DNA of 64,000 nucleotides from positions 66,712,001-66,776,000 of the forward strand of contig OZ024740.1 in the NCBI GenBank assembly GCA_964016885.1, read 5' to 3'. Positions 31,991 to 59,800 of this stretch are shown here, piece by piece. Numbering within the stretch: the stretch's first letter is position 1; every line of letters starts with the position of its first letter. This DNA is from Eledone cirrhosa. Taxonomy: Eukaryota. The position numbers were made by a program, and so were the translations under genes. Under the pieces are notes generated by a model. The model saw nothing but the letters and a program-made list of their open reading frames with translations, was not told where the DNA came from and made no database searches.

Positions 31991-33985
31991 CTGTACTATA
32001 ATCGGTACTATAGTCTCCAACAAAAACACCTGCTACTTACGGCTACAAGAACTAAAGGACACACTCATAGGCAGGGACTACCCTGCATCACTAATTGACA
32101 ATGGAATCCAACGTGCCCTAAAACTCAGTACCCTGGACCTTAGACACCCTAAAGTAAATCAACCGAAACTAAAAGCTCTTCCATACATCTCCACACACAA
32201 CCCCCTCAACAATGAGGCATTTGACACCATCCTCCAGAACATCCCTGTGTTGAAAAAGGACCATAGAATGAACCAAATCCTAAGAAAACACGATATGATG
32301 AAGAGCAAAAGACAATCTAAGTCAATGAAAAACATCCTAACACATGCCAAAGTACTGCCAACCACAACAACGAAACCCACAGTAAAAATATGCGATAGAC
32401 TCAACTGTGGCATATGCATCAACCTAATAGAGGGTTCGGAATTCTATTTCAAAGAAGGACAACGTTTTATAGTAAAACACAAATTCACATGCGCATCAGA
32501 AAATCTAATATATGTATTAACTTGCACAGGTTGTCGAGAACAATACATAGGCCAGACCAAAAACAGCCTCAGCAAACGCATGACTGTCCATAGATCCCAA
32601 ATTAAAATACAGGAATAGAGGAAAATACCACTGAGTGAACACATTGATACCTGTGCCGCCCAAAATGCTCCCAACTTCAGAATCTTTCCCCTCTACAAAT
32701 TTAAAGATAATACCACTCACACCCAGCGCATCAGCAAGGAATCTTACTTTATTAACAAATACGGACCCCGTCTAAACACTTCTCCCTAAGACGAATCCAC
32801 AACATACACACGTCAACATACATACCTACATCAGCATACATCTCTATCCACATATAAACAGAATGACATACGTAAACACACATGTTCTATGGTGCAACAC
32901 AAATATACACACATTTGCATACCTTTTGATGTCTATAGATATAAACGTGCCGACACACACACATACATAAACGCACACATGCATTGCACACTGATGGGTA
33001 CATACATATTTGTACACAAGTATTCCAATACGGCAAGGCCTAATAGATTCCCCTTGCAGTACGTACAATCTGGACACTCACACACACCTTGGCATTATGC
33101 CAATACTATGTATCATTTCACAACTTTTATTATTAAGGTTTTTGAAGTTCTATTGAGAGAATCGTTTTTACTGAAAATATCGAATAATGTACACCATTTT
33201 ACCAGTATCACAAAAATACTGGTCCACCCACACACACACACACACATTCTCACACACACACAACACACATATATACGCGTACATTAACATACAACGAGAC
33301 ATACACACACACACATACACACACACACACACACACATCTTCTCCGTTTAAGACCAGAGCTGAAAAATATCTTTTAGCATGTTAAAATATCCCCCACACA
33401 CTTACATACACATTCCTACTGACCATGCCTCTACCACGAATTTCTCTGCTACACACACACACACTTGTCTTAATAGGCATTTGAACTGTCAACAGGCTGC
33501 GGTTCGCACACACATCCCTGCTGACCATTATCACAACAACGAACCTCTTTACTACTACTACACACACACACACATATTTGTTTTGAAAGACTTATTTTTC
33601 AGTGACTTCTCACTCAGCCGACACAAACCTACATTTGGCGCAAAATCAATTTTTAACATTCACATGACCTCTACCGACCAATCAAAATTGTTTTGACCAC
33701 AAGAATTATTGCAACACGAATTGGCGCGAAACTTATTTTAATACCTCTGGAGCCACTTTTTTCACATAAAAACAGGTAGAATTTCCAAAACTAATCAGAT
33801 TAGAGCAAACATCACGGACGCTCTATCTCAGAATTGTTTTTGAAAAGCATTATAAATGCGCAACCGGTGAAACTTAAAACCAAAACTGAATACTAACCAA
33901 TACTATTACCGATTTTCGCTTATTCCTAATTAAACTATTTTCACTGTGAACAATCTGTCAGCATTTTCTTTTCCGTTTACCAATA
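31991..33985 (+). mobile_element. 5'-truncated Neptune-like PLE (thumb end, Cys linker, GIY-YIG, 3' UTR/pLTR) in (TA)n
   Basis: KICDRLNCGICINL..FTCASENLIYVLTCTGCREQYIGQT..RMTVHRSQI; highly similar to 56874-59015. Confidence 0.92.
33836..33873 (+). ncRNA. Divergent hammerhead-like motif of Neptune pLTR (TTGAAAA / GCAA)
   Basis: GTTT-TTGAAAA-GCATT-ATA-AATGC-GCAA-CCGG-TG-AAAC; recurs at 54905(+), 56984(-) and more degenerately ~42025(-), ~54822(-). Confidence 0.5.
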
Positions 33986-34164
33986 TACATATATATATAT
34001 ATATATATATATATATATACAAAATTAAGATAAATTAAATGAATTTAATCCAAATCGAAATTGTGGGTGTCATGCCTTAACGGCGTTCTAGTTATTATAT
34101 ATATATATATATATATATATATATATATATATATATATATATATATATATATATATATATATAT

Positions 34165-34640
34165 CTAAGGCGGGTAAAATTCCCGAGATCCATGGACGAG
34201 TTCTCTCCAGCGGTCTCTGTCCCTCATTATCGCTGCCATATCCTGCATCTCCAACAGACCAGTGTCTGTCCTTAGAGCATCAACATATGTTAACCTTGGT
34301 CTTCCTCTTCTAGTGTGTCCATGTAGGGGTTCCCAAAGGAGCACTGAGTGCAATGTCAACTGTGGATGTCGGTGAGCATGTCCAGCCAACCTCAGTCTCC
34401 TCTGTGTCACTTTTGAGCTGACTTTTGGGATGCTCCCATACAGCTCTGAGTTTCTCATTCTCAGTGTATACTGATTAATATTCAGAGCCATCCTCAGCAT
34501 TCTCGTGTAGCACCCATCCACCATCTGAGTGAGTCTCTTGGTCAGTGTCCAAGTCTCAGACCCATACAGCAGCACAGACTCCACTACAGCAATGAAGAGG
34601 CGGATTTTCAGGTCTCTACGAAGGTCCGACTTCCACACTA
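34165..34640 (-). mobile_element. RTE-clade LINE 3' end (ORF2 C-terminus), 5'-truncated, in (TA)n
   Basis: [47 protein letters not shown]. Confidence 0.93.
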
Positions 34641-56323: not shown

Positions 56324-56411
56324 CCTCTTGATAAGTCGGCAGACCTCGCAAGGACTCTATATCTTTATGATGTATTGTTTTTGTTTATACCACGAAACTA
56401 CGTAGTCGAGG
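56324..56411 (+). ncRNA. Second tandem copy of the U3:A8 hammerhead
   Basis: Direct repeat of 55731-55818 at 593-bp spacing. Confidence 0.75.
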
Positions 56412-56873
56412 AATCTAGGAGCAGTTTAGGTATGATACATTTTATTACTAATTATATCTAAATGTTTCTCCTCTCTTCATAATATATATATATATATATA
56501 TATATATATATATATAAATATATATATATTTATGTCTTAGGCAAACCTTTTAGGTAGATTAACGTATATATGATTCGTGCACCATTGACTACCCCTTTGA
56601 ATCCTACTGCAATTTTTCACGGGCCTATTAATGATTCTGCACGTATTTGCTCAACTGCTAGAAACGTCAATCAGTGATTAAATGGCTTTCATCATTAATC
56701 TGTTTCTCTTTTTCGGACTTAAACATCAATGCTGCGGCACCACTATTATATATGTATATATATATATATATATATATATATATATATTTATATATATATA
56801 TGTATATATATATATATATATATATATATATATATATATATGTATATATATATATATATATATATATGTATAT

Positions 56874-59800
56874 TGGTAAACGGAAAAGAAAATACTGACA
56901 AATTGTTCACAGTGAAAAATAGTTTAATTAGGAATAAGTGAGAATTAGTAATAGTATTGTTTAGTATTCAGTTTTGGTTTTTAGTTTTACCGGTTGCGCA
57001 TTTCTAATGCTTTTCAAAAATAATTTTGAGATAAAGCGTCCGTGATGTTTGCTCTAAACTGATTAGTTTTGGAAATTCTACCTGTTTTTATGTTAAAAAA
57101 GTGGCTCCAGCGGTATTAAAATAAGTTTTGCGCCAATTCGTGTTGCAAAAATTGTGGTCAAAACAATTTTGACTGGTCGGTAGAGGTCATGTGAATGTTA
57201 ATAATTGATTTTGCGCCAAATGTAGGTTTGTGTCGGCTGATTGAGAAGTCACTGAAAAATAAGTCTTTCAAAACAAATGTGTGTGTGTGTGTGTGTGTGT
57301 GTGTGTGTGTGTGTGTGTGTGTGTGTGTGTGTGTGTGTGTGTGTGTGTGTGTGTGTGTAGTAGTAGTAAAGAGGTTCGTTGTTGTGATAATGGTCAGCAG
57401 GGATGTGTGTGCGTACCGCAGCCTGTTGACAGTTCAAATGCCTATTAAGACAAGTGTGTGTGTGTTTGTGGTAGAGGGATGGACAGTAGGAATGTGTCTG
57501 TAAGTGTGTGGGGGATATTTTAACATGTTAACAGATATTGTTCAGCTCTTGTCTTATACGGAGAAGTGTGTGTGTGTGTGTGTGTGCGTTCGTGCGCATA
57601 CACGTGTGTGTGTGTGAGAATGTGTGTGTGTGGGGGTTGGGGGGGACCAGTAATTAGTTTTGTGATACTGGTGAAATGGTGTACATTATTCGATATTTTC
57701 AGTAAAATCGATTCTCTCAATAGAACATGAAAAACCTTAATAATAAAAGGTGTGTAATGATATATAGTATTGGCATAATACCAAGGTGTGTGTGAGTGTG
57801 TCCAGATTGTACGTACTGCAAGGGGAATCCATTAGGCCTTGCTGTATTGGAATACCTGTGTACAAATATGTATCTGGAGTGTGCCCAGAAATTGTATACC
57901 TGTGTACAAATTATATACTTGTGTACAAATATGTATCTGGAGTGTGTCCAGATTGTATTACTGCAAGGGGAATTCATTAGGCCTTGCCGTATTGGAATAT
58001 TTGTGTACAAATATGTATGAGCCCATGAGTGTGCAATGCATGTGTGCGTTTATGTATGTGTTTGTGTCGGCACGTTTATATCTATAGACATCAAAAAGTA
58101 TGCAAATTTGTGTATATTTGTGTTGCACCATAGAACATGTGTGTTTACGTATGTCATTCTGTTTATATGTGGGTAGAGATGTATGCTGATGTAGGTATGT
58201 ATGTTGACGTGTGTATGTTGTGGGTTCGTCTTAGGGAGAAGTGTTTAGACGGGTTCCGTATTTGTTAATAAAGTAAGATTCCTTGCTGATGCGCTGGGTT
58301 TGGGTGGCATTATCTTTAAACTTGTAGAGGGGAAAGATTCTGAAGTTGGGATGATTTTGGGCGGCCCTGGTATCAATGTGTCCACTCAGTGGTATTTTCC
58401 TGTATTCCCGTATTTTAATTTTGGATCTATGGACAGTCATGCGTTGGCGGATGGTGTTTTTGGTCTGGCTTATGTATTGTTCTCGACAACCTGAGCAAGT
58501 TAATACATATATTAGATTTTCTGATGCGCATGTGAAATTGTGTTTTACTATAAAACGTTGTCCTTCTTTGAAATAGAATTCCGAACCCTCTATTAGGTTG
58601 ATGCATATGCCACAGTTGGGTCTATCGCATTTTTTTTGCTGTGGGTTTCGTTGTTGTGGTTGGCAGTACTTTGGCCTGTGTTAGGATGTTTTTCATTGAC
58701 TTAGATTGTCTTTTGCTCTTTATGATATCGTGTGTTCGTAGGATTTGGTTCATTCTATGGTCCTTTTTCAACACAGGGATGTTCTGGAGGATGGTGTCAA
58801 ATGCCTCATTGTTGAGGGGGTTGTGTGTGGAATTGTATGGAAGAGCTCTAGTTTCGGTTGATTTACTTTAGGGTGTCTAAGGTCCTGAGTACTGAGTTTT
58901 AAGGCACGTTGGATTCCATTTCAATTAGTGATGCAGGGTAGTCCCTGCCTATGAGTGTGTCCTTTAGTTCTTGTAGCCGCAAGTAGCAGGAGTTTTTATT
59001 GGAGACTATAGTACAGATTATCTTGGCTAAGTTGTAGGGAATATTAATTTTAACGTGTCTAGGGTGGCAAGAGTTGAAAGGAAGATATTGCTTGGAGTCT
59101 GTGGGCTTGTAATATATGTCTGTTTCTATTTTTTTGTTATGGATCTTAATGAGGATGTCGAGGAAGGGGAGTTGTTGATGGCTGTATTCCATCGTGAAGT
59201 TAATATTCGTGTTGAGCTCATTTATAAGGGTGTGAAATTCTTTAAGTTTCTCGATGTTTTCGTGCCAAAGGATGAAGCAGTCATGTAGATATCGCTTCCA
59301 GTTCCTTTCTATGTGTAAGTGGAGAGTGTTTCCAAATTTGTTTAGGACTTTAGTGTAGAAGGTGATTTCCAGGTATCCCATGACTGGGTTGGCATAAGTG
59401 GGGGCTGTTTTCGTTCCAATGGTGGTCCCAGATTTCTGCCTGTAGGGTTTGTTATTGAAAACGAAGTAATTGTTCTCCAAGATAAATTTGAGTCCATCTA
59501 TCACGAATTCTTTTTTGATGCGTTGTGGGAGTTCATTGTGGTAATTATCTAGCCAGAATTGGATAGCTTCTATTCCTAGGTTGTGGGTGATGTTGGAGTA
59601 TAGGTTGACTACATCGAACGTCACTAGTAGGGTTTGTTCAGAAATGGGCATATTAGGGAGGTGATTGAGCATATCTAGGTCGTCCCTTATATAGCTTTTG
59701 ATGTGTTTGAGAAAAGGCTTGCGAATGGTATCAATGAAGTTGCTAAGGCGGTGGGTTTCGCAAGCGGGGCCTGATATTACAGGTCTTAATTTGAGATCAT

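What the first reader, a model, noticed from the sequence alone, without database searches (positions are those of the whole stretch)
33836..57022. Neptune pLTRs carry a strongly non-canonical hammerhead-like motif (UUGAAAA...GCAA-CCGG-UA)
Seen: TTGAAAA-GCATT-AGA/ATA-AATGC-GCAA-CCGG-T(A/G)-AAA at 33836, 54905 and 56984(-), with degenerate copies near 42025 and 54822. The other Neptune family has TTGATAA-TGCAT-AAA-ATGCT-GAAA-CCGG-TA at a comparable position (39651,-), which bridges to a normal HHR. Inference: a lineage with U3:A8 plus A13>C that standard searches would miss; either an active variant or a fold kept for a non-catalytic role such as RT recognition or dimerisation via ACCGGT.
Basis: partly seen in the sequence, partly recalled or inferred. 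Interest (0 to 1): 0.72.

Follow-up and report, generated by a model that had tools for sequence, protein, structure and literature searches.

The report
Penelope hammerhead with fixed A13C change
A young jumping-gene family with over 10,000 copies in this animal genome carries the small self-cutting RNA motif typical of Penelope elements with a normally invariant A replaced by C, which likely slows or stops cutting, yet the family kept spreading and the rest of the motif stayed unchanged, so it is a natural test of whether these elements need to cut their RNA.

Summary
The motif is real and is a Penelope-type minimal hammerhead in the terminal repeat of a Neptune/Nematis-type element. U3-A8 is already published and common in relatives; only A13C is new. 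It is fixed: 10,748 exact copies, 35 with A13, in three successive subfamilies whose ORF2 is under purifying selection. All 36 hammerhead hits in 74 related loci from other organisms keep A13. The true bridge is not the 39651 family but larger A13 sister families sharing the upstream 95 nt (65-70%); the element is a mosaic. Copy ends cluster about 70 nt upstream of the cut site in both A13 (22/34) and C13 (18/79) families, none at it, so templates are likely uncut. Since A13C arose, 0 of 25 core/stem positions changed against 32 of 210 flank positions (p about 0.02). Best reading: a weakened or dead ribozyme whose fold or sequence is still kept; cleavage untested. The scan has noted other fixed core changes in Penelope hammerheads in other genomes. 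New variant of a known kind.

The parts
33840..33869 (+). Minimal hammerhead, U3-A8, C13 at 33861, G at position 17; 3-nt-loop subfamily
54909..54938 (+). Minimal hammerhead, U3-A8, C13 at 54930
56988..57017 (-). Minimal hammerhead, U3-A8, C13 at 56996; predicted cut after 56988
54825..54854 (-). Decayed copy (A8G, A15.1U), left arm of a head-to-head pair
42029..42059 (-). Decayed copy (G12U) of the young 4-nt-loop subfamily
39654..39683 (-). A13 hammerhead of the RT-sister family, with extra U at 9a and before G12
32000..33984 (+). 5'-truncated C13 element: end of RT-EN ORF, 3' UTR and terminal repeat, between (TA)n tracts
56872..60209 (-). 5'-truncated, frameshifted C13 element: RT frame 58902-60134, GIY-YIG frame 58231-58680 with CX4CxxC linker, 3' UTR, terminal repeat
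54705..55050 (.). Short head-to-head pair of C13 terminal-repeat fragments; the right arm starts about 73 nt upstream of the cut site (outer ends approximate)
41903..42098 (-). Short C13 copy in (TA)n, starting 70 nt upstream of the cut site; a separate insertion upstream of the A13 element
39451..41812 (-). Old 5'-truncated element of the A13 RT-sister family (ORF2 remnant, 3' UTR, terminal repeat; lower end approximate)
57052..57066 (-). Position matching the cluster of copy 5' ends; inferred transcription start
   Evidence: inferred
57018..57112 (-). Upstream 95-nt module shared at 65-70% with two A13 families that are distant by RT

Best explanation
This is the minimal type I hammerhead of a Penelope-like retrotransposon in which A13 is replaced by C throughout one large, recently active lineage; the change likely slows or abolishes self-cleavage, and the lineage likely spreads from uncut RNA. 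Shown: the motif is sense to the ORFs, lies about 190 nt before the ORF1 start in a full 4.8-kb unit, copies end about 125 nt downstream of the cut site in (TA)n, and short copies begin 64-79 nt upstream of it. Inferred: transcription starts about 70 nt upstream of the cut site, reverse transcription starts about 125 nt downstream of it and reads through the motif, so cleavage is not needed to make the template. Inferred, weaker: helix II and the 6-nt palindrome are still under selection, most likely as a folded or dimerising leader element bound by the element's proteins.
For: Fixation: 35 of 10,748 copies have A13; 97 of the first 100 listed have C. Derived state: 36 of 36 descriptor hits in 74 metagenome loci have A13 although any base was allowed, all on the sense strand; all other families seen in the genome have A13. 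Continued activity: three subfamilies with median divergence from their own consensus of about 3.5%, 2.9% and 1.2%; ORF2 fourfold-site differences 0.057-0.114 against 0.004-0.007 at second positions. Uncut templates: 0 of 79 C13 and 0 of 34 A13 flank-anchored copies start within -3..+2 of the cut site. In PMC11167929 (parts 1-2 of 4 read) hammerhead catalytic mutants did not affect insertion in vitro. Constraint: 0 of 25 core, helix II and palindrome positions differ among the three subfamily consensuses, against 32 of 210 flank columns (Fisher p 0.021); the only changes are an A-to-U that adds a fifth pair and a loop insertion. About 2,000-2,900 laid contigs per run show no substitution at 1% or more in 56983-57033. 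PMC3088659 (section 8 and passages) states that most core mutations cause drastic loss of activity and counts A13 as core.
Against: No cleavage data; I found no paper with a measured A13C rate (the large loss is recalled, not from a call). The catalytic G12, the 3-8 pair and all other core positions are intact, which is also what an active variant would show. The constraint test is modest: the 19-22 nt just upstream and two 16-nt stretches downstream are invariant too, and two CpG positions of the palindrome are changed in 3 of 66 copies each. A13 families also insert from uncut RNA, so copy ends do not tell C13 from A13. Contig depth is a poor measure of variant share; the old 5-nt-loop subfamily did not show.
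Confidence: 0.55

Rival explanations
1. A13C is tolerated: the motif is still a slow, dimeric, protein-assisted ribozyme, and the U3-A8 background, the longer helix II or the ORF proteins compensate.
For: Every other core position, including U4, G5, A6, G12, A14 and 15.1-16.1, is kept over a subfamily tree of length about 0.125. Helix II gained a pair after C13 arose. The Anolis element's hammerhead cleaves only with protein (PMC11167929). Active natural core variants exist (PMC3088659 section 8). The palindrome dimer is the predicted best fold for C13 and natural A13 copies alike.
Against: A13 is invariant in 36 of 36 related hits and in the consensus line of the PMC4209133 supplement (passages). 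Stem I is only three U-A pairs. No excess of copy ends at the cut site.
Confidence: 0.25
2. The ribozyme is dead and its RNA fold is irrelevant: the stretch is unchanged by chance and short time, or because it lies in a downstream promoter region (+40 to +70 from the inferred start) kept at the DNA level.
For: The invariant block runs about 20 nt beyond the motif on the upstream side; other invariant stretches of 16-22 nt exist; the expected number of neutral changes is only 3-4. PMC8557442 (passages) raises the idea that hammerheads merely parasitise these elements.
Against: The two changes seen are both compatible with helix II; zero changes in 25 positions has p about 0.02-0.04.
Confidence: 0.2

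Closest known systems
Minimal type I hammerheads of metazoan Penelope-like elements (Cervera and de la Pena 2014, PMC4209133; parts 1-2 of 4 and supplement passages read)
   Same: In the terminal repeat, sense strand; short stem I, 4-5 bp helix II starting G10.1-C11.1, palindromic helix III; the U3-A8 core, reported there for about 1,300 Schistosoma mansoni motifs.
   Different: C at position 13 fixed in more than 10,000 copies; no unpaired 9a nucleotide; stem I only three U-A pairs.
Poseidon element of Anolis (Frangieh et al. 2024, PMC11167929; parts 1-2 of 4 read)
   Same: Reverse transcription starts downstream of the hammerhead; AT-rich targets; uncut RNA is the main template.
   Different: There the core is canonical and cleaves with protein; inactive cores were made in vitro. 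Here a core change is fixed in a natural, spreading lineage, and the motif lies before a separate ORF1.
Neptune/Nematis-type EN+ Penelope-like elements (Craig et al. 2021, PMC8557442 and its preprint; passages read)
   Same: RT with DKG motif, C-terminal GIY-YIG, CX2-5CxxC linker, (TA)n targets, tandem and inverted terminal repeats.
   Different: Mosaic terminal repeat; altered hammerhead core. No clade reference sequences were on hand to separate Neptune from Nematis.
Natural hammerhead core variants (Perreault et al. 2011, PMC3088659; section 8 and passages read)
   Same: U3-A8 covariation; rare natural core changes with low activity.
   Different: The variants named in the text read are A6C, A6a, U13a insertion, U15.1-A16.1 and a U-U at 10.1-11.1, not a substitution at 13. 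Its Figures 5, S6 and S7 were not seen.

Membership tests
Minimal type I hammerhead of Penelope-like elements | 5' core strand C3/U3-U4-G5-A6-N7-G8/A8-A9 with a 3-8 pair | tested here: met
   U3-A8; the 3-8 pair is standard in 14 of 14 aligned families (9 U-A, 5 C-G; metagenome rows were descriptor-selected)
Minimal type I hammerhead of Penelope-like elements | 3' core strand G12-A13-A14-A15.1 | tested here: not met
   C13; only 35 of 10,748 copies have A13
Minimal type I hammerhead of Penelope-like elements | Helix II with covariation | tested here: met
   Double changes among genome families found without a pairing filter; 88% of cells paired
Minimal type I hammerhead of Penelope-like elements | Palindromic helix III allowing a dimer | tested here: met
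   6-nt palindrome; dimer is the best cofold in 9 of 9 natural sequences; prediction only
Minimal type I hammerhead of Penelope-like elements | Stem I and U16.1-H17 | tested here: inconclusive
   Three U-A pairs, covarying with a C-G in sister families but not predicted to form; A17 in most copies, G17 at 33869
Minimal type I hammerhead of Penelope-like elements | Location in the terminal repeat, sense to the ORF | tested here: met
   Full units L035 and L036, motif to motif 4,852 and 4,805 bp
Minimal type I hammerhead of Penelope-like elements | Self-cleavage | not testable with these tools
   Needs an assay
EN+ Penelope-like element, Neptune/Nematis type | RT followed by C-terminal GIY-YIG | tested here: met
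   Pfam RVT_1 E 0.003 and GIY-YIG E 0.00023, both below the curated cut-offs; 133 long homologues, best 57-60% identical
EN+ Penelope-like element, Neptune/Nematis type | [quoted passage not shown] | tested here: met
   CX4CxxC and the inner cysteines read directly
EN+ Penelope-like element, Neptune/Nematis type | Tandem or inverted terminal repeats, (TA)n targets | tested here: met
Neptune clade specifically | RT phylogeny with named Neptune references | not tested
   Trees held unnamed homologues only

The most novel reading that the evidence does not exclude
A Penelope lineage captured another family's promoter-plus-hammerhead module by a swap that ends at the cleavage site, then switched the ribozyme off with A13C while keeping the fold as a dimerisation or protein-binding signal; loss of cutting raised its share of long insertions (40 of 79 against 7 of 34 in the A13 donor lineage). 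Penelope hammerheads would then be structural RNA signals first and ribozymes second.
Probability: 0.15. Interest if true: 0.75.

Novelty: new variant of a known kind. Interest (0 to 1): 0.47.

Why it matters
The role of hammerheads in Penelope-like elements is an open question (PMC8557442), and the evidence that cutting is dispensable comes from one in vitro system (PMC11167929). This genome holds side by side a C13 lineage, its A13 relatives and 35 natural A13 copies on the C13 background, so cleavage can be compared using natural sequences only. If C13 is dead, cleavage is dispensable in vivo over three waves of spread. If it cuts, A13 is not invariant and hammerhead search descriptors need widening.

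Tried and rejected
Rfam: no hammerhead family among the 150 of 243 window matches listed, and 0 gathering-score hits in 5 loci that include canonical cores, so the miss is not specific to A13C. A covariance model from 21 A13 motifs of other organisms ranked all five C13 copies and the 39651 motif among 30 hits, but only at E 0.6-9.3: not significant. RNA: no RNA holder listed; the three runs laid are contigs of one sample and may be the assembly's source, so they are not independent. Cleavage footprint by copies abutting (TA)n: by eye 11 of 33 A13 loci and 8 of 29 C13 loci in the first 100 rows began at the cut site, more than a uniform spread would give, but alike in both families and confounded by TA microhomology and the anchor position: inconclusive, and rare relative to family size. 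A13C creates a second 6-nt palindrome beside the first; cofolding does not favour it: rejected as a mechanism. Assembly artefact: rejected (5,401 and 5,347 matches on the two strands). Sporadic decay: rejected. The 39651 family as flank bridge: rejected. PDB search with a full-length homologue: no match. The careful tree did not finish; one search is a quick tree with a frameshift-damaged row, and repeats the point with family consensus proteins. Not held and not seen: Lunse et al. 2017 on Penelope hammerhead variants, Nelson and Uhlenbeck 2008, Scott et al. 2013. One supplement file of PMC4209133 could not be searched and figures are not held; any of these may show A13 variants. PMC9901934 (passages and one supplement) gave no A13 value; PMC3907566 and PMC6257768 (passages) gave none for A13C. 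Searches for print precedent: (0 papers with 'A13C').
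Full report
Observation. The motif stands at 33840-33869 (+), 54909-54938 (+) and 57017-56988 (-), with decayed copies at 54854-54825 (-) and 42059-42029 (-). A 3-mismatch search finds 4 window matches and none in 100 shuffles. In hammerhead numbering it reads U3 U4 G5 A6 A7 A8 A9, a 5-bp helix II opening with G10.1-C11.1, then G12 C13 A14 A15.1, a 4-nt self-complementary stretch, U16.1 and A17. Only position 13 departs from published minimal hammerheads of Penelope-like elements. U3-A8 was reported for about 1,300 Schistosoma motifs (PMC4209133, parts 1-2 read), and its supplement lists one with the same 5' core strand.

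The host element. [quoted passage not shown] Full units elsewhere in the genome run 4,805 and 4,852 bp from motif to motif (L036, L035). In L036 an intact 436-aa ORF1 starts about 190 nt after the predicted cut site and overlaps ORF2 out of frame. Copies stop about 125 nt after the cut site in (TA)n. These features fit Neptune/Nematis-type elements as described in PMC8557442 (passages); the two clades were not told apart. The genome is 3.0 Gb; other notes of the scan call it octopus-type, which I did not test.

A13C is fixed and derived. The family pattern with position 13 free has 10,748 matches, control 0; 35 of them have A. The main A13 sister family has 54 exact copies with a base other than A. 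A flank anchor has 12,941 matches, a lower bound on terminal-repeat copies. In 74 metagenome loci of related elements a descriptor that left position 13 free gave 36 hits, all sense-strand and all A13, many with U3-A8. On 14 aligned families 93.6% of cells pair and 9 of 10 pairs show a double change, 6 of 500 shuffles reaching that count; six rows were chosen by a pairing filter and related rows inflate the score.

The lineage kept moving. Three C13 subfamilies differ in loop II (5, 3 and 4 nt), with median divergence from their own consensus of 3.5%, 2.9% and 1.2% in motif-selected samples of 33, 66 and 22 copies. Between them ORF2 differs at 5.7-11.4% of fourfold sites and 0.4-0.7% of second positions; the oldest subfamily rests on 2 copies and about 90 sites. 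So source elements were selected for working protein after C13 arose.

The bridge, and a mosaic. By RT the C13 family is closest to the 39651 family (79% aa) and far from the large A13 sister families (59%) (quick tree). By the 95 nt upstream of the motif it is the reverse: 65-70% identity to those A13 families (z 7.6-9.8) and no alignment to the 39651 family (z 0.7-0.8). Likeness to the A13 families ends at the cut site. This module changes at about the neutral rate within the C13 lineage (14 changes in 94 columns) while fourfold sites against the one A13 sister ORF compared differ at about 60%, so a module swap is the simplest reading (inferred; the direction is not shown). Against those families the motif differs at 3-4 of 30 positions and the module at 32-39%.

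Where templates begin. In copies collected by a downstream anchor, not by the motif, 5' ends cluster 64-79 nt upstream of the cut site: 22 of 34 in A13 families and 18 of 79 in the C13 family. None starts within -3 to +2. These are the first 30 of 8,891 A13 anchor matches with their neighbours, and about 80 of 12,941 C13 matches; some rows are two arms of one insertion and two C13 rows are duplicates. The window's own short copies (42098, 54866) start in this cluster. I read the cluster as the transcription start, as other notes of the scan did for other families, and conclude that reverse transcription reads through the motif. This matches PMC11167929, where catalytic mutants did not affect insertion in vitro and no RNA reads ended at the cut site. 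A search limited to copies abutting (TA)n did show some starts at the cut site in both families (11 of 33 and 8 of 29, by eye), confounded by microhomology. Long copies are commoner in C13 (40 of 79) than in A13 (7 of 34; p 0.003), but rows are not independent and only two lineages are compared.

Is the motif still constrained? Among the three subfamily consensuses 0 of 25 core, helix II and palindrome positions differ, against 32 of 210 flank columns (Fisher p 0.021; Poisson p 0.02-0.04 on the fourfold tree length). The two changes inside the motif add a fifth pair and widen the loop. In 66 of 80 anchored copies that span the motif there is no subfamily with a broken core; two CpG positions of the palindrome are changed in 3 copies each. 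Contigs of three runs from one sample show flank variants but no substitution in the motif. Against this, about 20 nt upstream and two 16-nt stretches downstream are invariant as well, so the constraint may be on promoter DNA, or partly chance.

Mechanism. Most likely (0.55) A13C weakens or kills cleavage, the element inserts from uncut RNA as its A13 relatives do, and the fold is kept for another use. That A13 substitutions cost two or more orders of magnitude is recalled; from calls I have only the general statement in PMC3088659. An active, protein-assisted variant (0.25) and a relic kept by chance or promoter constraint (0.2) remain open. Folding cannot separate them: C13 and natural A13 copies give the same predicted dimer, and stem I is not predicted to form in either.

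Novelty. Nine paper searches found no fixed position-13 variant, but the most relevant paper (Lunse et al. 2017) and the figures of the others were not seen. The scan has unreviewed notes on other fixed core changes in Penelope hammerheads of other genomes, so the theme recurs; these notes are leads, not support. A second family in this genome shows A at core position 4 in all of the first 100 of 22,549 matches. Verdict: new variant of a known kind, interest 0.47.

Noticed in passing
window 60242-60296 (-) and 31823-31877 (+); L315-L329: A second hammerhead-like family with A at core position 4 in the first 100 of 22,549 genome matches and no clear U16.1 or stem I. Neighbouring ORF pieces carry a DKT motif like the Hydra clade described in the preprint of PMC8557442 and do not match this element's relatives by tblastn. 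Further window copies were not mapped.
   Followed up: partly
L036, L035, L031, L037, L217, L220: ORF1/ORF2 overlap: ORF1 (436 aa, coiled-coil-like by eye) overlaps ORF2 in the -1 frame at a run of six T followed by A, the same in 6 of 6 copies printed; it looks like a ribosomal frameshift site.
   Followed up: no
window 57112-57260 (-); L036: A 110-140-nt module upstream of the motif is repeated in tandem in some copies; another note of the scan reads it as a stacked promoter.
   Followed up: no
window 54705-55050 and many G000 loci: Short head-to-head pairs with motifs 70-160 bp apart are frequent, often at the same spacing (110 bp in the youngest subfamily), because both arms stop at the 5'-end cluster.
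   Followed up: partly
L043-L045, L126: A further A13 family with U3-A8 and a longer, different helix II; no ORF was linked to it.
   Followed up: no
window 54544-54607 (+) and 54336-54399 (-): An inverted pair with a canonical C3-G8 core and a long helix II region, from an unrelated repeat (E 0.56).
   Followed up: no
window 15290-16075: Tandem array of a 47-50-bp GC-rich unit, followed by 450-740-bp repeats to about 18400.
   Followed up: no
window 9237-10673 (+): A 478-aa open frame with no Pfam match.
   Followed up: no
G000: Rare variants at position 13 are uneven between reference strands (25 against 10, and 14 against 40); unexplained, possibly chance or assembly error.
   Followed up: no
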